Shown here in pieces: positions 5,554 through 14,273 of a DNA stretch of 64,000 nt. This DNA is from Candidatus Forterrea multitransposorum CG_2015-17_Forterrea_25_41 (lineage in GTDB: Archaea; Iainarchaeota; Iainarchaeia; Iainarchaeales; CSSED10-239). The stretch is taken from NCBI GenBank assembly GCA_009392915.1, contig CP045477.1:64001-128000 (forward strand), read 5' to 3'. A program made the position numbers and the translations under genes. How positions within the stretch are numbered: position 1 is the first letter of the stretch; the number at the start of each line of letters is the position of its first letter. The notes below the pieces were generated by a model. The model ran no database searches and was not told where the DNA came from. It worked only from the letters and a program-made list of their open reading frames with translations.

Positions 5554-7140
5554 ATGTTAGAAGACAAGTATATTACTTTTCCATATATTAAGAAAAATAC
5601 TGTGGAAAAAAGAGTTTATCAAGAACTATTGACTGCAAAAGCTATTGAAACATCTACATTAGTTGTAGCTCCAACTGGTCTTGGAAAAACCATTGTTGCG
5701 GTTTTACTTATAGGGTTTATATACAATCCAAAAAAATCAATTTTATTTTTAGCACCAACAAAACCTCTTGTCTCACAACATAAAAAATCTTTAGAAAAAG
5801 TTTTAGAAGTTGATCCTGATAAAATAATTTTTTTAACAGGACAAAATCCTCCTGAAAAGAGAAAAGAAATTTATTCTCAAAAAGGGTTAGTTATTTGTGC
5901 TACTCCTCAGACAATAGATAATGATATTAAAAATAATCTTTTAAAAGAAGATAATTTTAATTTAATAATCTTTGATGAAGCTCATAGAGCTGTTGGAGAG
6001 TATGCTTATGTTTCTATTTCTTCTTTTTTTAAAGAAGAAATAAAAAGACTTGCATTAACAGCATCTCCTGGTTATAATAAACAGAAAATTAAAGAAATTG
6101 CTGATAATTTAAAAATAAAACATATAGAAATAAAAACTGAATCTGACTTAGATGTTATTGATTATGTTAAAGATATAGAGATTGAAACTGTTTTTGTTGA
6201 ACTTGATGACGTTTCAAAAAAAATATCTAAAATTTTAGATTCTTTTATTTTAAAAAAAATAGAACTTTTAAGAAAACTTAATTTATCAGTTTCTTCAAAC
6301 TTTACTAAAAAACAAATATTAATGGTTCAACAACAATTGTTTAAAAGACTTGAATCTTCTAAAAATTCATTAAATTTTGTAGCACTTATAAATGTGTCTT
6401 TAGCTTTAAAAGCACTTTATGCAAAAGAATTAATTGAGACTCAAGGTTTTTTACCTCTTAAACATTATCTTGAAAAAGCATTTATTGATTCTAAATCTTC
6501 AAAAACTACTAAAACTTTAAATCAATTTGTAAATTCTAAAGAAATTTTAGAAACTTATTCTTTAATAATTAATTTAGATTATTCAAAACCAATTTATTCT
6601 AAGGAAAAAGAAATTGTAGAATTGGTTAAAAACTTTATTTTAAATAATCCTTCTTCAAAAATATTAATTTTTAATAATTTTAGAGATTCTGCTCAAAATA
6701 TTTCAAATTACTTAAATAAATATGATAATTTAAATAGTGTGAGATTTGTTGGACAATCTTCTAAAGAAAAAGATAAAGGATTATCTCAAAAAGAACAAGC
6801 TCAAATAATTTCTGACTTTAGAGATGGTTTAAACAATGTTTTAGTGTGTACTTCTGTTGGTGAAGAAGGACTTGATATTCCTTCAGTTGATTTAGTTTTT
6901 TTTTATGATGCAGTTCCTTCAGAAATTAGGTCTATACAGAGAAGAGGAAGAACAGGTAGATTTAATGCTGGTAAAGTTATTATTCTTTTAAATAAAGATA
7001 CAATTGATGAACATTATTATTATGTTTCTTTAAAGAAAGAAAAAACTATGAAAAAAAATTTAATTTCCATGTCAAGAGATGGAGATTTGAAAATTGTGAA
7101 AAGAAAGAAAAAAGTTCAAAAAAATTTAGGTGACTTTTAA
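5554..7140 (+). CDS. Hef/FANCM-type SF2 helicase (helicase part only)
   Basis: Motif I APTGLGKT, motif II FDEAHRA, motif VI QRRGRTGR. 528 aa. No nuclease domain in this ORF. Confidence 0.8.
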   Translation: MLEDKYITFPYIKKNTVEKRVYQELLTAKAIETSTLVVAPTGLGKTIVAVLLIGFIYNPKKSILFLAPTKPLVSQHKKSLEKVLEVDPDKIIFLTGQNPPEKRKEIYSQKGLVICATPQTIDNDIKNNLLKEDNFNLIIFDEAHRAVGEYAYVSISSFFKEEIKRLALTASPGYNKQKIKEIADNLKIKHIEIKTESDLDVIDYVKDIEIETVFVELDDVSKKISKILDSFILKKIELLRKLNLSVSSNFTKKQILMVQQQLFKRLESSKNSLNFVALINVSLALKALYAKELIETQGFLPLKHYLEKAFIDSKSSKTTKTLNQFVNSKEILETYSLIINLDYSKPIYSKEKEIVELVKNFILNNPSSKILIFNNFRDSAQNISNYLNKYDNLNSVRFVGQSSKEKDKGLSQKEQAQIISDFRDGLNNVLVCTSVGEEGLDIPSVDLVFFYDAVPSEIRSIQRRGRTGRFNAGKVIILLNKDTIDEHYYYVSLKKEKTMKKNLISMSRDGDLKIVKRKKKVQKNLGDF

Positions 7141-7159
7141 GAAAAAATGTGATATAAAT

Positions 7160-7618
7160 ATGGATTTATTAGAATTTATAATTGAAGCAAAAAAAAATAC
7201 TTATGCATCTTCAAAAATAACTGATAAATTAAATAAAGATGGTTCTAAAGAACTTATATTTGAAAAAGATTCTTTAAAATATATTGATAAATATTATGGT
7301 TTTAATCCTTTTTCTGGTCAAGAAATTATTTTTAAAGATTATAAGGGTATTTGGTCTATGAATTATTATGGTTTTATAAAAGATCATTTAGTTTCTGAAA
7401 AAGAAGTTTATTCTTTTTTAAAAAAAGCTTTACTTAATGTTGAAAAAAGATTTCCTTTAAGAGGTCCAAATATTTATAGAGAAGGAGATTTTGAATATTT
7501 TTCAGATACTTCTGGATTTATTGAAGAATTTAATGGAAAGGAAAGAATTGATTATAATGGTAAAACTGTATATCATGGTTTTTATCATGGTGGTCTTTTA
7601 AGAGATAAATTAATTTAA
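7160..7618 (+). CDS. DUF5680-like hypothetical protein
   Basis: Track ORF starts at 7130, but ATGTGAT sits 7 nt before the ATG at 7160. EFIIEAKKNTYAS...YYGF...WSMNYYG...FPLRGP...YHGFYHGGL resembles DUF5680 as I recall it. Confidence 0.45.
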   Translation: MDLLEFIIEAKKNTYASSKITDKLNKDGSKELIFEKDSLKYIDKYYGFNPFSGQEIIFKDYKGIWSMNYYGFIKDHLVSEKEVYSFLKKALLNVEKRFPLRGPNIYREGDFEYFSDTSGFIEEFNGKERIDYNGKTVYHGFYHGGLLRDKLI

Positions 7619-7637
7619 TTTTAAAAAGTGATTTTAA

Positions 7638-8306
7638 ATGCCTTTAAAAGAAATAAATATTATTTGCGATACTAGAGAAAAAGCTTCTTCAGTTTTATCA
7701 GAAATTTCACTTCTTTCAGATAATGATATAAAAGTTAATGTTATTTTAGAACAATTATCTGTTGGAGATTATCAAATTTCAGACGATATTGTAATTGAAA
7801 GAAAAACTTTATCTGATCTTGAAACTTCAATTATTGATGGTAGAATATTTTCTCAATTGCAAGATCTTTCTTTTGTTAAAAGATCTGCTTTAATTATTGA
7901 AGGTGATCCTTTTTTATTGTATAATAGTAAAAGAATAAATGGTAAAGCACTAATTGGTTTAATTACTTCTGTTGGACTTAATTATAGAATTCCTTTATTT
8001 TTTACAAAAAATCAAAAACAAACTGCTTTATTTTTGTGTACCATGGCAAAAAAAGAACAACTTAAAAATGGAACTTCTGAATCTAAACTAAGGTATCAAA
8101 AAAATAAAATGTCAGGTACTCAATTCCAATTATTTATAATGCAGTCTTTTCCAGATGTAGGACCTACTCTTGCAAAATCTATTTTAAAAGAATTTAAATC
8201 TATTAAAAATATTTCAAATGCAAGTATTGAAGATTTATTAAAAGTTCCAAAACTTGGTCCAAAAAAAGCTCAAAAAATAAAATATCTTTTTGAAAGAGAA
8301 TATTAG
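7638..8306 (+). CDS. ERCC4 (XPF/Hef/Mus81-type) nuclease with C-terminal (HhH)2
   Basis: DTRE...VGDYQISDDIVIERKTLSDL signature (GDYxnERKxxxD) and two helix-hairpin-helix motifs (DVGPTLAKSIL, VPKLGPKKAQKI). Confidence 0.85.
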   Translation: MPLKEINIICDTREKASSVLSEISLLSDNDIKVNVILEQLSVGDYQISDDIVIERKTLSDLETSIIDGRIFSQLQDLSFVKRSALIIEGDPFLLYNSKRINGKALIGLITSVGLNYRIPLFFTKNQKQTALFLCTMAKKEQLKNGTSESKLRYQKNKMSGTQFQLFIMQSFPDVGPTLAKSILKEFKSIKNISNASIEDLLKVPKLGPKKAQKIKYLFEREY

Positions 8307-9303: not shown

Positions 9304-9846
9304 ATGTTAACTTTTTTTAAAAAAATTAAAAGAGATTTGAAAACTAAAAAAAAAATAAAAGAATCTCTTTATTTTTTATTATTTTTTATAATTTCTTTTT
9401 CTCTTATTTATTTATTATTATCAAAAACCTTAATCTATAATTTTATAAACTATTTTTATGGTTCTCTTTCAAGTATTATTCTTAATATTTTTTATGGAAT
9501 TAATACTTCTTTTTATTATGATTTTATAGAACAAGTAACTTTTCTAATAATTCCAAGTATAGATTATCCTGTTGCAATTGTTTTCTTATGTACTGGTATT
9601 TTAGAATTTTCTTTAATTGTAAGTGCTATTGTTTCAACTATTGGTTTTTCTTTAAGAAAGAAAATAAAATGGGTATTAATTTCTTCTTTCCTTGTAATTA
9701 TTTTTAATCTTTTAAGAATAACTTTTACAATATTTATAATAGATTATTTTAATTTAGAAATAGCAGATTTTTTCCATGGTTTTTTATTTAGATTATTTTT
9801 AGTAATTATTGTTATTGGTACTTATTATTTTTTCTTAAAATCTTAA
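9304..9846 (+). CDS. exosortase/archaeosortase family protein (small form)
   Basis: 180-aa polytopic membrane protein with the family Cys/Arg/His pattern: VFLCTGILE (Cys), IFNLLRITF (NxxR), FFHGFLF (His). Confidence 0.65.
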   Translation: MLTFFKKIKRDLKTKKKIKESLYFLLFFIISFSLIYLLLSKTLIYNFINYFYGSLSSIILNIFYGINTSFYYDFIEQVTFLIIPSIDYPVAIVFLCTGILEFSLIVSAIVSTIGFSLRKKIKWVLISSFLVIIFNLLRITFTIFIIDYFNLEIADFFHGFLFRLFLVIIVIGTYYFFLKS

Positions 9847-10745: not shown

Positions 10746-11102
10746 ATGAATAAAAAAATATTAAATATTTTTGGAGTACTTTCTGTTTTAGTTTTTTTAA
10801 TGTTTATTTCATTAAACTTAAGTGCAGAGAGATTTGATGTTACTGATATTTCTTACTCTTATGTAAGTTATAATTATCCATATTACCCAAATGGTCAATA
10901 TTATAATAGTTACTATAATTATTATGATTATTATATTCCAACAGGTTATGTAAATTCATATACAGGCTATATTAATTATCCTGCTTACTCAAATTATGTT
11001 CCAACTTACTATAACACTTCATATGTAACTTATCCTTCATACTATAACAACTCAATCAGTTATGGAAGTCCAGAGGCATATGTTTCTTTTAGTTGGCAAT
11101 AA
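10746..11102 (+). CDS. secreted tyrosine/asparagine-rich low-complexity protein
   Basis: Sec-type signal peptide (MNKKILNIFGVLSVLVFLMFISLNLSA). The mature region has about 28 Tyr in about 90 residues by hand count. GAGGTG SD. Confidence 0.7.
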   Translation: MNKKILNIFGVLSVLVFLMFISLNLSAERFDVTDISYSYVSYNYPYYPNGQYYNSYYNYYDYYIPTGYVNSYTGYINYPAYSNYVPTYYNTSYVTYPSYYNNSISYGSPEAYVSFSWQ

Positions 11103-11129: not shown

Positions 11130-14100
11130 ATGAACTATAAATATTTTTTTGTATTTTTATTAGTAGTTTTATTTTCATCAATGGTATTTTCATACACAAT
11201 TGGTTTTGATTATGCTGAAGTTAGAACTACAAGTTATCCTAACTATCTTAATTATCAATATGCTCATTACTATGATAATATTGATCTAAGATATGGTGTT
11301 TATGGAAGTGGAATTTCTTCTCCAGTAACAATAATTGTTTCTCCAAAAGTTTATGGAATAACAACTACTGGTCAAAGAGTCTTTGTTCATAATATACAAA
11401 CTCATTCTTTTTCAATGAATCCTTCTTCTTTTTATACTTATAGTTATAATCCAATGTTTTCTTTTGATCCTGCATATCAAAGTTATGAAGTTGTTTTAGA
11501 TCTTCAAAGTTCAGATGGATCTTTTAATAATTCTGTAAGTAGATATGTTTATTCTCAAGGAACAAATCCAAACCCTGGAGGAGATGATCCTACAGGTGAT
11601 GATCCTAATGTAGTTAGTTGTGATGATTTTTATGTTTCAGGAATGGAAGATATTTATTTAGATGAAGATTCAAGAGAATATTATAATCTTTATTTAGTAA
11701 ATTCTGTTGACTTGCCACTTACAATAACTTCAGTTACAGTTTCTCCAAATAATCCTACTAACTTAGAAATTGAAGATATTACTTATCCTTTTACAGTTTC
11801 TGCTCTTCAAACAAGAAGTGCACAAATTGAACTTTTTACAGATACAGTTTCTTCTGATTATTCAAATAGTTTTCAAATAGAAGTTAAAGGTAAATATGAT
11901 AATTCTTTAACTTGTGAAAAAACATATAATGTTAATTATAGAATACTAGATGCTGAACTTGAAAATAATGGTTCTTGTAGTGATATAAGAATTTTAGATG
12001 ATTATTTTACAATGAGTGATAATTCTTCTAAAACTTTTGAAATTGAAGTTTCAAATGCTTCTCAAGATTATTATTTTGAAGTTGATGATATTGATTTAGA
12101 TACTACAAATGATTCAATAATTGAAGCTAGTGTTAGAAACACAATTGATAAAATATATACAGATTCTTCTAAAATTTTAAAAATAAATGTTTCTTCAGAT
12201 GACACTTCTTTTTATAGAACTGAAAAAATTGATTTAGAACTAACAGGTTATTTAAAAAGAGAAAACAGAGAAGATAAAAAATGTAGAATAAGAGAAGATG
12301 TTTCAATAAGAGTTTCTCCAGATTCTTCAACTGGAAATACTTCAAATGAATGTGATGATATAAAAATATATACAAGAGATGTTTTCCAAGATTCTCAAAT
12401 AACAGAAAACTACTCTCTTCAAGAGGGTTTTTATATTTATAATGGAACTAATAAAAAATTTACTGTATCAGGTATTAACTATAAAGACAATACTATGTAT
12501 GCAGATATCTTTTCAAAATCTTTTGATTATACTCTTTATCCTAGATCCTCTAATGCTTTAAATTTTGATATAAGAACAAGTGAAGTTTCAGAAAATAAAC
12601 TTTCAAATGCAGAAATTTCTATTCAAGGATATTTTGAAGGTGGACTTTCTTGTAGTTATTCAGATATAACTTCAAACTTTAATTTAACTATAAGAGAAGA
12701 AAATGATTTTTGTTCAAATGTAGGTATTTATGATGACAGTTTTGTTGAAGGTGAAAATTATTTTACAGTTTATAATAACACTAATAAAGACTTTACTGTA
12801 AATGATATTATTTCTCAAAATTCAGTTAACTCAAATGTAGGTGTGATTGATTCTTCTTTTAAAGTTTTAAAAGATTCACAAAAAACTTTTAGAGTTGGTT
12901 CTTCAGGAAATGGTAGTTTTGAGCTTTTAGCTAAAGGTGTTTTTTCAGATGGCACTTCTTGTGACTATACTCAAACAAGCAGTGGTTATTTCAATAGTGA
13001 TTCTGGTTATGATTTTTCAGATACTTCTTGTGAATTTGAATTTAATTATCCAAATGTAAAATATATCTCTTTAAACGGAGACTCTCTAAATTTTGATTTT
13101 AGAAACTTAACTGGAAAATCTGGTGAGATTAGACTTTCTGCAGTTGGTGCTGTAATTGAAGATCCAATTATTAAGTTTTCTTCATATTCATCTTTTAATA
13201 AAGAAATAGATCTTTTAAATATTAAAAATCCAAAAATGGTTCTTTATACAATTGAAATTTACGGTTGTTCTAAAAAATCATATTTTACAAATCTTTATCC
13301 TTTAGGAAATTCTATTCAAGGAGATGTTTCATTTTTAACATATCCTAGTAATTTAATTTCAACTAAAGATAAATTTATAAGTTCTTTTTCACTTAAAAAC
13401 TCAAGTAGTTTTTCAGAAGATGTTGAAATTAAATTTTCAGGTTTTACAAGTGCATTTAATTTTGTATCTTCTCCTTATCCATTAAACCCAAATACTTTCT
13501 CATCTTCAGATAATGTTTCAACAGTTACAATAAATCCAAACTCTACAAAAAATATTTATTTTGGAGTTGATGTTTTAGAAAATGCAGAATATAAAAAATA
13601 TAATGGATATATTGAAGTTTATAGTAATAATAAATTATTATTTAAAGAGCCTTTATCAATAGATAGATCAATTACTACTAATAATTTATTAGTAAATACT
13701 ATGGTTGAAAAGACATCTGTTAAAAATACTGTTCTTTTAACATTTACTTTTGAAAACAAATTACCTGACCTTACAAGAGAACTTTATTTATCTTTTGAAG
13801 ACGAGAATAGTTTTGAAGTAGATGGTAATAGAAATATATCTGTTGCACCATTAAGTGTACTTGAAAGAAGCTTTACTGTTAAATATAATGAAGGTTCTTT
13901 ATTTAAGTATAATTTAATAGATACAGATAATTCTTCTCTTGCATATTCTGGAGAAGTAGATTTAAAAGAAATTGATAATTCTTCAAATCTTTTATCTGGA
14001 TTTTTTACTCTTTCAGATACAAAAGGATTTATATTTGCAATTGTTCTTATATTACTTATAGCTTTAATTATTTTCTTAATAGTTTATGGAGATAAATCTA

Positions 14101-14273
14101 GAGCTAAAAGAAAACAAGAAACTAAATCAGTTTTAGAAACACAAGAAAAAATAAAAGAAGAAATTAGAAAAGATAATTTTTCTAATATTACTAAGTCTGA
14201 GATTATAATAGGAAATAAGCCTATTATAAAGCCTGCAGAACCAAGACAGATTACTTTAGGTGAGCTTGATTAA
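11130..14273 (+). CDS. large surface protein (1047 aa): signal peptide, five Cys-bracketed modules, TM anchor, charged tail
   Basis: N-terminal signal peptide. Repeat modules of about 110-125 aa each begin and end with a Cys (aa ~164-713). TM segment GFIFAIVLILLIALIIFLIV followed by an ~80-aa K/E-rich tail. Confidence 0.8.
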   Translation: MNYKYFFVFLLVVLFSSMVFSYTIGFDYAEVRTTSYPNYLNYQYAHYYDNIDLRYGVYGSGISSPVTIIVSPKVYGITTTGQRVFVHNIQTHSFSMNPSSFYTYSYNPMFSFDPAYQSYEVVLDLQSSDGSFNNSVSRYVYSQGTNPNPGGDDPTGDDPNVVSCDDFYVSGMEDIYLDEDSREYYNLYLVNSVDLPLTITSVTVSPNNPTNLEIEDITYPFTVSALQTRSAQIELFTDTVSSDYSNSFQIEVKGKYDNSLTCEKTYNVNYRILDAELENNGSCSDIRILDDYFTMSDNSSKTFEIEVSNASQDYYFEVDDIDLDTTNDSIIEASVRNTIDKIYTDSSKILKINVSSDDTSFYRTEKIDLELTGYLKRENREDKKCRIREDVSIRVSPDSSTGNTSNECDDIKIYTRDVFQDSQITENYSLQEGFYIYNGTNKKFTVSGINYKDNTMYADIFSKSFDYTLYPRSSNALNFDIRTSEVSENKLSNAEISIQGYFEGGLSCSYSDITSNFNLTIREENDFCSNVGIYDDSFVEGENYFTVYNNTNKDFTVNDIISQNSVNSNVGVIDSSFKVLKDSQKTFRVGSSGNGSFELLAKGVFSDGTSCDYTQTSSGYFNSDSGYDFSDTSCEFEFNYPNVKYISLNGDSLNFDFRNLTGKSGEIRLSAVGAVIEDPIIKFSSYSSFNKEIDLLNIKNPKMVLYTIEIYGCSKKSYFTNLYPLGNSIQGDVSFLTYPSNLISTKDKFISSFSLKNSSSFSEDVEIKFSGFTSAFNFVSSPYPLNPNTFSSSDNVSTVTINPNSTKNIYFGVDVLENAEYKKYNGYIEVYSNNKLLFKEPLSIDRSITTNNLLVNTMVEKTSVKNTVLLTFTFENKLPDLTRELYLSFEDENSFEVDGNRNISVAPLSVLERSFTVKYNEGSLFKYNLIDTDNSSLAYSGEVDLKEIDNSSNLLSGFFTLSDTKGFIFAIVLILLIALIIFLIVYGDKSRAKRKQETKSVLETQEKIKEEIRKDNFSNITKSEIIIGNKPIIKPAEPRQITLGELD

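What the first reader, a model, noticed from the sequence alone, without database searches (positions are those of the whole stretch)
5554..8306. Hef is split into separate helicase and ERCC4-nuclease genes with an unrelated DUF5680-like gene inserted between them
In Euryarchaeota, Hef is a single polypeptide (SF2 helicase plus ERCC4 nuclease plus HhH2). Here the helicase (motifs APTGLGKT, DEAH, QRRGRTGR) ends at 7140. A 152-aa ORF with its own ATGTGAT-type RBS follows (7160-7618). The ERCC4-(HhH)2 nuclease (GDY...ERK) is a third ORF (7638-8306), also with its own RBS. All three are tightly spaced on one strand. This is either a genuine gene fission with recruitment of a third subunit, or an insertion that split the gene.
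Basis: partly seen in the sequence, partly recalled or inferred. Interest (0 to 1): 0.5.

Follow-up and report, generated by a model that had tools for sequence, protein, structure and literature searches.

The report
Split Hef gene with optional passenger
In one group of tiny DPANN archaea the DNA-repair enzyme Hef really is encoded as two adjacent genes (helicase and nuclease), but the DUF5680 gene between them is an optional passenger that close relatives lack, not a required third subunit.

Summary
Window 5554-7140 encodes a Hef-type SF2 helicase, 7160-7618 a full DUF5680 protein and 7638-8306 a Hef-type ERCC4-(HhH)2 nuclease. They lie on one strand in three frames with 19-nt spacers.

The split is real. 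The identical trio occurs in 24 contigs from several samples. All helicase relatives at 54% identity or more (49 clusters) lack the nuclease, while relatives at 46% or less are almost all fused Hefs. The split clade is monophyletic (100% NJ bootstrap).

The break lies right after a conserved PIP-like motif (QKNLGDF*), so the helicase resembles the known helicase-only Thermoplasma Hef.

The "third subunit" idea is not supported. The slot between the halves is variable: empty (0-53 nt), DUF5680, a YafQ/RelE-like toxin-antitoxin pair, or both. One strain with 97%-identical flanking genes lacks DUF5680. About 66 DUF5680 loci elsewhere never neighbour Hef.

DUF5680 entered the slot once (89% bootstrap), is under purifying selection (dN/dS about 0.1), and has no fold or function assignment.

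Verdict: a genuine lineage-specific gene fission whose junction collects small accessory genes. Modest novelty.

The parts
5554..7140 (+). Hef helicase half (528 aa): SF2 RecA lobes plus thumb-like insertion, no nuclease domain
   Evidence: NCBIfam PRK13766 positions 3-518 of 781, E 1e-170. Pfam DEAD, ResIII, PF21210 and Helicase_C. PDB 1WP9 E 1e-116. All 49 clusters at 54% identity or more are helicase-only.
7117..7137 (+). C-terminal PIP-box-like motif QKNLGDF (last 7 residues of the helicase), preceded by a Lys-rich run
   Evidence: The pattern KKKxQxx[ILM]x[DE][FY] is conserved at the extreme C-terminus of the split-clade helicases, with minor deviations in a few (the Gln is missing in L091/L111). 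The equivalent QTTLxKY lies in the linker of the closest fused relatives. The same position and single-aromatic form is the experimentally proven PCNA-binding PIP box of Thermoplasma Hef (PMC4838364). PCNA binding here is inferred, not tested.
7149..7153 (+). GTGAT Shine-Dalgarno motif 6 nt upstream of the DUF5680 ATG
   Evidence: Sequence. SD-like motifs are enriched before ORFs in this window, 35% against 2.4% of random positions.
7160..7618 (+). DUF5680 protein (152 aa), a variable passenger gene in the slot between the Hef halves
   Evidence: PF18931 E 4e-33. AF2 model pLDDT 92 with a duplicated helix plus four-strand unit. dN/dS 0.06-0.16 in close pairs. Present or absent among close relatives.
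7628..7632 (+). GTGAT Shine-Dalgarno motif 5 nt upstream of the nuclease ATG
   Evidence: Sequence. This segment is retained in the DUF5680-less strain L093.
7638..8306 (+). Hef nuclease half (222 aa): ERCC4 domain plus (HhH)2
   Evidence: Hef profile positions 569-779, E 9e-60, scoring better than the crenarchaeal Xpf model at 132 bits. Pfam ERCC4, HHH_2 and HHH_5. PDB 2BGW E 2e-27 and 1J22 E 1e-19. Catalytic GD..ERK..D is invariant. All relatives at 55% identity or more are standalone proteins of about 222 aa.

Best explanation
In a monophyletic sub-clade of DPANN archaea (Iainarchaeia/Diapherotrites) the ancestral single hef gene underwent fission in situ. The break lies in the region coding for the disordered inter-domain linker, immediately after the PIP-box-like motif. 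This produced a helicase-only protein that ends in that motif, like Thermoplasma Hef, and a standalone XPF-like ERCC4-(HhH)2 nuclease. The two genes stayed adjacent on one strand. Where nothing lies between them they are 0-53 nt apart, so they are probably co-transcribed and translationally coupled. They presumably still act on stalled or branched DNA as separate polypeptides, with the helicase tethered to PCNA by its tail and the nuclease acting as a homodimer. The new intergenic junction became a permissive slot for small accessory genes that ride on the operon. One is a YafQ/RelE-type toxin-antitoxin pair, found in both sub-clades. The other is DUF5680, acquired once in one sub-lineage. Both were then inherited mostly vertically and lost repeatedly. 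In this window the slot holds DUF5680 only. DUF5680 is a functional protein that is dispensable for Hef. It is most likely a small ligand- or protein-binding module (elsewhere it is the C-terminal domain of XRE-type HTH regulators) and not a Hef subunit. Shown: the anatomy, clade distribution, presence/absence variation, selection, single acquisition, and lack of linkage elsewhere. Inferred: co-transcription, PCNA binding, separate-polypeptide action, and the biochemical role of DUF5680.
For: Domain mapping of the two halves onto contiguous parts of the Hef profile. The identical trio in 24 contigs. Helicase-only relatives at 54% identity or more against fused Hefs at 46% or less, including other Diapherotrites. 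Standalone nucleases at 55% identity or more. Split clade monophyletic at 100% NJ bootstrap and sister to fused forms. Partial shared synteny: the closest fused relatives also have S8e 0.6-2.3 kb downstream of Hef. Four slot states: empty, DUF5680, TA, and DUF5680 plus TA. Sister pairs that differ in slot content: L007/L093 93%, L105/L101 100%, L117/L109 100%, L103/L104 100%. Near-identical nucleotide flanks in L093 with DUF5680 cleanly absent. Co-divergence of DUF5680 (rho 0.82) and the TA pair (rho 0.84) with Hef. Slot-type DUF5680 monophyletic at 89%. dN/dS 0.06-0.16 in close pairs for DUF5680, similar to the helicase and nuclease. No Hef near DUF5680 in about 66 other loci. Conserved C-terminal PIP-like motif, and two further putative splits at the same point. 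Thermoplasma Hef precedent (PMC4838364). Helicase and nuclease domains fold independently and are joined by a disordered region.
Against: DUF5680 has kept its exact position for a long time and is under purifying selection, which a neutral passenger would not need; this is compatible with some Hef-related role. No transcript data show an operon, and the promoter/terminator scan is uninformative for archaea. Trees are NJ on limited data, and support for the DUF5680-bearing sub-clade as a single group is only 52%. The gene order differs between lineages (TA-DUF in L010, DUF-TA in L099/L103/L106), so the history is not fully resolved. PCNA binding is inferred from a motif only.
Confidence: 0.75

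Rival explanations
1. DUF5680 is a lineage-specific third partner of split Hef. It could be a non-covalent adaptor or regulator that replaces functions of the lost covalent linker or disordered region, bridging or gating helicase and nuclease.
For: It sits exactly where the linker, a protein-interaction hub in T. kodakarensis Hef, was encoded. It has tight 19-nt spacers with its own SD. It co-diverges with Hef (rho 0.82). It was acquired once and retained in many lineages. dN/dS is about 0.1 in close pairs.
Against: It is absent in strain L093, whose Hef halves are 97% identical to the window's, and in L095, L101, L110/L111 and the whole of sub-clade A. The same slot holds an unrelated TA cassette. 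No Hef linkage was found in about 66 other DUF5680 loci, and the family has 2,723 representatives. Its fusion partners are XRE-HTH, SH3, DapB_N and DUF1349, never repair domains. No structural similarity to DNA-repair factors was found.
Confidence: 0.13
2. The fission was caused by an insertion. A mobile YafQ/RelE-type toxin-antitoxin cassette, rather than DUF5680, landed in the linker-coding region of a fused hef and split it. Later losses left the two halves adjacent.
For: The TA cassette lies in the slot in both major sub-clades and co-diverges with Hef (rho 0.84), so it may be as old as the split. TA cassettes are typically mobile, and further paralogous toxins sit next to the helicase in some loci. 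The different TA/DUF order in L010 shows that more than one insertion or rearrangement hit the slot.
Against: No sampled locus shows a fused hef disrupted by a cassette. Two putative independent splits (L135, L140) break at the same place with overlapping ORFs and no insert, so fission does not need an insertion. Many empty slots have 0-11 nt gaps. No flanking repeats or other insertion scars were found in the window. The toxin hits fall below the curated family cut-offs.
Confidence: 0.25
3. The three ORFs are an artefact: frameshift or assembly errors in a single hef gene, or a chimeric contig.
For: The genome is AT-rich and homopolymer-rich, the source is a MAG, and the three ORFs are in three different frames.
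Against: The identical arrangement occurs in 24 contigs from several samples. There are 49 helicase-only and more than 60 nuclease-only clusters. The middle ORF is a complete, unrelated Pfam domain with its own start, stop and SD. All three genes are under purifying selection.
Confidence: 0.01

Closest known systems
Thermoplasma acidophilum Hef (taHef), the helicase-only Hef with a C-terminal PIP box (Rohleder et al. 2016, PMC4838364)
   Same: A Hef-type SF2 helicase with no nuclease domain. The polypeptide ends in a single-aromatic PIP-like motif (window QKNLGDF*; taHef residues 502-508), at the position where fused Hefs begin their linker.
   Different: Here a Hef-type nuclease is retained as a separate gene 0-1.1 kb downstream on the same strand, and the fission is a separate event within DPANN. 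PCNA binding was not tested here. Whether Thermoplasma has a linked nuclease could not be checked with these tools.
Canonical fused euryarchaeal Hef (P. furiosus / T. kodakarensis; NCBIfam PRK13766; PDB 1WP9, 1J22-25, 1X2I)
   Same: Both halves are clearly of Hef type: helicase E 1e-170 and nuclease E 9e-60 to the Hef profile, with all catalytic motifs intact. The break lies in the disordered linker known to separate two independently folding, independently active domains.
   Different: Two polypeptides instead of one, and the roughly 50-residue linker after the PIP motif (profile positions 519-568) is gone. Each half scores below the full-length equivalog cut-off of 610 bits.
Crenarchaeal short XPF (A. 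pernix / Sulfolobus; NCBIfam NF040956; PDB 2BGW)
   Same: A standalone protein of about 220 aa with ERCC4 plus (HhH)2. The best solved-structure match of the nuclease is ApeXPF, E 2e-27.
   Different: The window nuclease scores higher on the Hef model (203 bits) than on the Xpf model (132 bits against a cut-off of 300), and its gene is linked to the Hef helicase. No canonical C-terminal PIP motif is visible (C-terminus ...KIKYLFEREY); from my own knowledge, Sulfolobus XPF depends on such a motif.
Split genes of DPANN archaea (Nanoarchaeum-type gene fission)
   Same: Lineage-specific fission of a multidomain informational protein at a domain boundary in a reduced DPANN genome. The phenomenon is discussed in DPANN reviews found.
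   Different: The halves remain adjacent and syntenic, and the junction has become a variable slot for accessory genes. Hef is not mentioned in the main text of the archaeal fusion/fission survey I searched (PMC11237513; its supplementary tables were not searched).
Type II toxin-antitoxin cassettes (YafQ/RelE/ParE superfamily)
   Same: In relatives, but not in this window, the slot holds a tight two-gene pair: an upstream protein of about 88 aa and a toxin-like protein of about 91 aa that matches TIGR00053 (E 2e-16), PF15738, PF05016 and phrog_1213.
   Different: Scores are below the curated cut-offs, the upstream 'antitoxin' has no family match, and no activity was tested.

Membership tests
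[quoted passage not shown] | SF2 helicase core with motifs I (GxGKT), II (DEAH) and VI (QRxGRxGR) and the thumb-like insertion between the RecA lobes | tested here: met
   APTGLGKT, DEAH and QRRGRTGR are in ORF1. PF21210 insertion E 1e-10. Aligned to the 1WP9 Hef helicase over residues 12-500, E 1e-116.
[quoted passage not shown] | C-terminal ERCC4 nuclease with GDxnERKx3D plus an (HhH)2 domain | tested here: met
   Present, but in a separate ORF (7638-8306). Pfam ERCC4 E 3e-24 and HHH_5/HHH_2. G43 D44 E54 R55 K56 D60 are invariant in 18 orthologues.
[quoted passage not shown] | Helicase and nuclease in a single polypeptide joined by a linker (full-length equivalog score of 610 bits or more) | tested here: not met
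   A stop at 7138-7140 and a separate start at 7638. The helicase scores 569 bits and the nuclease 203 bits, both below the cut-off of 610. Profile positions 519-568 are not covered.
Helicase-only Hef of the Thermoplasma type (taHef) | Hef helicase without a nuclease domain, ending in a PIP box (Qxxhxxa) that binds PCNA | tested here: inconclusive
   The architecture and the C-terminal motif QKNLGDF* are present and conserved across the clade, with minor deviations. PCNA binding is shown only for taHef and cannot be tested with these tools.
Crenarchaeal short XPF (NCBIfam NF040956 Arch_Xpf_endonuclease) | Equivalog-level similarity (300 bits or more) and a PCNA-dependent C-terminal PIP motif | tested here: not met
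   132 bits against a cut-off of 300, and the Hef model scores higher. The C-terminus ...KIKYLFEREY has no Qxxh..aa motif.
DUF5680 (Pfam PF18931) | Full-length match above the Pfam gathering threshold | tested here: met
   114.5 bits against a cut-off of 25, profile positions 1-104 of 104. The family profile finds 2,723 representatives.
   Empty or TA-only slots occur in at least 17 distinct loci, including a strain with 97%-identical Hef halves. None of about 66 other DUF5680 loci has Hef or ERCC4 nearby.
Mobile-element or intein-type insertion of the middle gene | Flanking direct or inverted repeats, a recombinase or homing endonuclease, in-frame intein motifs, or foreign base composition | tested here: not met
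   Only AT-rich chance repeats. No integrase or intein domains. GC3 is 0.033 against 0.06-0.08 in the flanking genes, so composition is native-like.
Type II toxin-antitoxin (YafQ/RelE) - applies to relatives' slot cassette only | A small toxin of the RelE/YafQ fold preceded by a small antitoxin gene, with scores above the curated cut-offs | tested here: inconclusive
   The two-gene architecture is conserved in at least 10 loci. The toxin scores 60.6 bits on TIGR00053 (cut-off 87), 25.5 on PF15738 (cut-off 30), and E 1e-6 on phrog_1213. The antitoxin has no hit. The cassette is not present in the window.

The most novel reading that the evidence does not exclude
DUF5680 is a dedicated, lineage-specific accessory factor of the split Hef. 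It would be a small adaptor or sensor that docks on the helicase tail or the nuclease and takes over regulatory functions of the lost disordered linker. That would give DUF5680 its first functional context, and it would explain why the gene has been kept under purifying selection at exactly this position since a single acquisition.
Probability: 0.12. Interest if true: 0.6.

Novelty: new variant of a known kind. Interest (0 to 1): 0.33.

Why it matters
This is a natural experiment on Hef/XPF/FANCM architecture. The helicase and nuclease, which were studied as separate fragments in vitro, are here separate proteins in vivo. The break has occurred, apparently more than once, at exactly the point after the PCNA-binding motif. 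That links the three known archaeal forms (fused Hef, helicase-only Thermoplasma Hef, short XPF) by a plausible evolutionary route.

It also shows how a newly created intergenic junction inside an operon becomes a landing site for small accessory or selfish genes (a toxin-antitoxin pair and DUF5680). Strain-level presence/absence variation could be exploited to test what DUF5680 does.

The finding does not reveal a new repair machine. For annotation purposes, helicase-only and nuclease-only 'Hef' genes in Iainarchaeia should not be flagged as pseudogenes.

Tried and rejected
**Assembly artefact.** Rejected on the basis of 24 independent contigs and dozens of orthologous clusters.

**DUF5680 fold assignment.**
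- Foldseek against the PDB gave a best E of 1e-2 with TM about 0.25. The weak hits were on chorismate-lyase/UTRA effector-binding domains.
- BFVD viral structures gave nothing significant.
- A PDB sequence profile search gave no hit.
- The afdb50 library was unavailable.
- Conclusion: no fold or function assignment. The UTRA-like hint fits the XRE-HTH fusions but is too weak to claim.

**Defence or phage origin of DUF5680.** No PADLOC or PHROGs hit.

**Conserved partner of DUF5680 elsewhere.** Neighbours are heterogeneous. Only a radical-SAM gene recurs, in 6 of 66 loci. This was not pursued further.

**Literature on DUF5680.** One irrelevant mention.

**Insertion scars.** Only low-complexity repeats, and the base composition is native-like.

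**Promoter/terminator scan.** At chance level, and not designed for archaea.

**L094 'frameshifted' DUF5680.** It lies next to N's, so I treated it as an assembly ambiguity and not a pseudogene.

**Technical failures.** The first genome scan with the broad alignment A1 failed for lack of conserved stretches and was repeated with A2. The BLOSUM-distance bootstrap timed out and was redone with Kimura-corrected p-distances.

**Simple deletion between the two GTGAT-containing spacers as the origin of L093's empty slot.** Not supported, because L093 has 23 nt of unrelated spacer.
Full report
**1. Observation**

- **ORF1 (5554-7140, 528 aa)** carries helicase motifs I, II and VI. It matches the NCBIfam Hef equivalog PRK13766 over profile positions 3-518 of 781 (E 1e-170). 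It also matches Pfam DEAD/ResIII/Helicase_C plus the helical insertion PF21210. It aligns end to end with the crystallised P. furiosus Hef helicase fragment 1WP9 (E 1e-116).
- **ORF3 (7638-8306, 222 aa)** matches Hef profile positions 569-779 (E 9e-60). That is better than its match to the crenarchaeal Xpf model (132 bits). It has ERCC4 plus (HhH)2, and its best solved relatives are ApeXPF 2BGW and the Hef nuclease 1J22.
- **ORF2 (7160-7618, 152 aa)** is a complete DUF5680 domain (PF18931, E 4e-33).

The genes are in three different frames with 19-nt spacers. GTGAT Shine-Dalgarno motifs precede ORF2 and ORF3 but not ORF1. Such motifs precede 35% of long ORFs in the window against 2.4% of random positions.

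**2. Not an artefact, and a real fission**

The identical trio is present in 24 contigs from several metagenomes, including a 687-kb contig of GCA_009993905.1.

A search with the helicase shows a sharp discontinuity. All 49 clusters at 54% identity or more are helicase-only (514-544 aa). At 46% or less nearly all hits are fused Hefs of 733-818 aa with ERCC4 and HhH domains, including other Diapherotrites/Iainarchaeum MAGs. Conversely, all nuclease relatives at 55% identity or more are standalone proteins of about 222 aa, with the catalytic GD...ERK...D residues invariant.

On a helicase+nuclease NJ tree the split forms are monophyletic (100% bootstrap) and sister to fused forms. The split locus is syntenic throughout the clade: L1-L10-L12, helicase, [slot], nuclease, Cgi121, S8e. 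The closest fused relatives also have S8e 0.6-2.3 kb downstream of Hef, so the fission probably happened in place. All three window genes are under purifying selection, with dN/dS 0.04-0.16 in close pairs.

**3. Where the break is**

Every split-clade helicase ends in a Lys-rich run followed by Q-x-x-[ILM]-x-[DE]-[FY] and then zero to three residues (window...KKKVQKNLGDF*). A few lack the Gln (L091/L111). The closest fused relatives carry the corresponding QTTLxKY inside their linker, 5-10 residues before the nuclease domain. Two more distant loci (L135, L140) appear to be independently split at the same point, with overlapping ORFs.

According to Rohleder et al. 2016 (PMC4838364), this is the position of a single-aromatic PIP box conserved at the helicase/linker boundary of archaeal Hefs. 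Thermoplasma acidophilum Hef is naturally helicase-only and ends in this PIP box, and that motif binds PCNA with a KD of 1 uM. The helicase and nuclease domains are known to be separated by an intrinsically disordered region and to fold independently (PMC5717133; separate crystal structures).

So the window's helicase is architecturally a taHef-like protein, and the nuclease is an XPF-like standalone protein of Hef ancestry. PCNA binding here is inferred from the motif only.

**4. The middle gene is variable**

I scanned one genome per species for DUF5680 relatives and metagenome contigs for the nuclease. I then located all three proteins and the ORF boundaries. Within the split clade the space between helicase stop and nuclease start has four states.

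| Slot state | Gap | Loci |
|---|---|---|
| Empty | 0-53 nt | L091/L110, L093, L095, L101, L109, L111-L114, L121, L122 |
| DUF5680 only | about 480-550 nt | window, L007-L009, L011-L013, L089, L092, L098, L102, L105, L107, L108 |
| Two-gene cassette only | about 625 nt | L087/L118/L119, L096, L115-L117, L123 |
| DUF5680 plus the cassette | about 1.1 kb | L010 (order cassette-DUF); L099, L103, L106 (order DUF-cassette) |

The cassette encodes a protein of about 88 aa with no family match and a toxin-like protein of about 91 aa of the YafQ/RelE/ParE type. The toxin hits are TIGR00053 E 2e-16, PF15738, PF05016 and phrog_1213, all below the curated cut-offs.

The most telling case is L093, from a 332-kb contig. 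Its helicase and nuclease are 97% identical to the window's, and its flanks are almost nucleotide-identical to the DUF5680-bearing L007 and L092. DUF5680 is nevertheless absent, with a 36-nt spacer in its place. Well-supported sister pairs differ in slot content: L007/L093 93%, L105/L101 100%, L117/L109 100%, L103/L104 100%.

**5. History of the passengers**

DUF5680 identity tracks Hef identity across 120 locus pairs (Spearman 0.82), and the TA pair does likewise (0.84, 21 pairs). Slot-resident DUF5680s form one clade among 88 family members (89% bootstrap), with nearest relatives at about 50% identity in other DPANN and CPR genomes. DUF5680's GC3 (0.033) is as low as that of its neighbours, and there are no flanking repeats beyond AT-rich chance matches.

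The simplest reading has four steps:
- The fission predates the sampled clade.
- The TA cassette was in the slot early, because it occurs in both sub-clades.
- DUF5680 entered once in one sub-lineage.
- Both were then lost repeatedly, including very recently.

The different order in L010 shows that at least one further insertion or rearrangement occurred. Whether the TA insertion caused the fission cannot be decided. L135 and L140 show that the same break can occur without any insert.

**6. What DUF5680 is**

The family is large: 2,723 representatives at 50% clustering. It is mostly standalone at about 150 aa and spread over DPANN, CPR, Asgard, Bathyarchaeia, Chloroflexota and Proteobacteria.

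In about 66 loci outside the split-Hef clade there is no Hef or ERCC4 gene nearby. Neighbours are heterogeneous, and the only recurrent one is a radical-SAM gene in 6 loci. The one recurrent fusion is an N-terminal XRE-type HTH; rarer partners are SH3, DapB_N and DUF1349.

My best guess is a small ligand- or protein-binding module. This is inference.

**7. Verdict on the interpretation**

- Gene fission: yes.
- DUF5680 insertion as the cause of the split: unlikely, because the split is older than DUF5680's single acquisition.
- A residual possibility (about 0.12) is that DUF5680 has acquired a Hef-related role in the lineages that keep it. The grounds are its long retention in place and strong purifying selection.

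**8. Novelty and interest**

Helicase-only Hef (Thermoplasma), nuclease-only XPF (Crenarchaeota) and gene fission in DPANN are all known. An adjacent split Hef in Iainarchaeia, broken right after the PIP box, with a junction that collects a TA pair and DUF5680, was not found in the literature I could search.

I rate it a new variant of a known kind. It is of modest interest to archaeal DNA-repair and genome-evolution specialists (0.33). It is useful for annotation and as a natural separation-of-function system.

Noticed in passing
L087:4437-4994 (also L096, L097, L115-L119, L123; L010:5445-5986; L099:3933-4476; L103:3020-3559; L106:3871-4410): A conserved two-gene cassette occupies the same slot between the Hef halves in many relatives, alone or together with DUF5680. 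It encodes an antitoxin-like protein of about 88 aa with no family match and a YafQ/RelE-like toxin of about 91 aa. It is not present anywhere in this window.
   Followed up: yes
L014:2-2075 (CAZQEL010000005.1): A slot-type DUF5680 (70% identical to the window's), cut by the contig edge, is followed by a 260-aa minus-strand ORF, Cgi121 and S8e, with no nuclease gene at the syntenic position. The nuclease half may have been lost or moved in this lineage.
   Followed up: partly
L008:6450-7173 (JBBISB010000001.1): The nuclease gene has a frameshift at about residue 29, so the N-terminal CDxRE segment is in another frame and the called protein P0099 is only 187 aa. This is either a pseudogene or a sequencing error.
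   Followed up: partly
L135:2853-5136 and L140:2976-5061: Two distant Hef loci (37-41% identity) appear to be independently split. The helicase and nuclease ORFs overlap by 20 nt and 8 nt, and the break is right after the same Q/T-x-L-G-E-F motif. A frameshift error cannot be excluded.
   Followed up: partly
L031, L040, L048, L062, L064, L078 (gene directly upstream of DUF5680): In 6 of 66 unrelated DUF5680 loci (CPR bacteria and Gammaproteobacteria) a radical-SAM protein of about 270 aa (PF04055, CxxxCxxC) lies immediately upstream on the same strand. It is the only recurrent neighbour found.
   Followed up: partly
proteins P0059, P0060, P0067, P0068, P0071, P0075, P0077; P0292, P0404, P0419: DUF5680 recurs as the C-terminal domain of XRE-family HTH proteins of about 220 aa; one such cluster has 193 member sequences. 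It is rarely fused to SH3, DapB_N or DUF1349. This suggests a sensor or interaction module.
   Followed up: partly
L103:632-886, L106:1481-1735, L012:2-208: A second, paralogous RelE-like toxin gene (about 30-34% identical to the slot toxin) lies just upstream of the helicase gene in some relatives. Toxin-antitoxin genes therefore cluster around this locus.
   Followed up: no
window 7130-7618: An alternative GTG start at 7130, overlapping the last 11 nt of the helicase gene, gives a 162-aa DUF5680 and is used in some public gene calls (P0001). Homologue alignment and the SD motif favour the ATG at 7160.
   Followed up: yes
window 11130-14273 (= L001:11971-15114): A 1,047-aa ORF conserved in the sister contigs has no Pfam hit on record.
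   Followed up: no
window 10746-11102: A 118-aa ORF has a hydrophobic N-terminus and an extremely Tyr/Asn-rich low-complexity body (YNYPYYPNGQYYNSYYNYYDYY...).
   Followed up: no
window 9304-9846: A 180-aa multi-pass membrane ORF gives a weak match to exosortase/archaeosortase (PF09721, E 2e-4, below the cut-off). It is conserved next to S8e in relatives.
   Followed up: no
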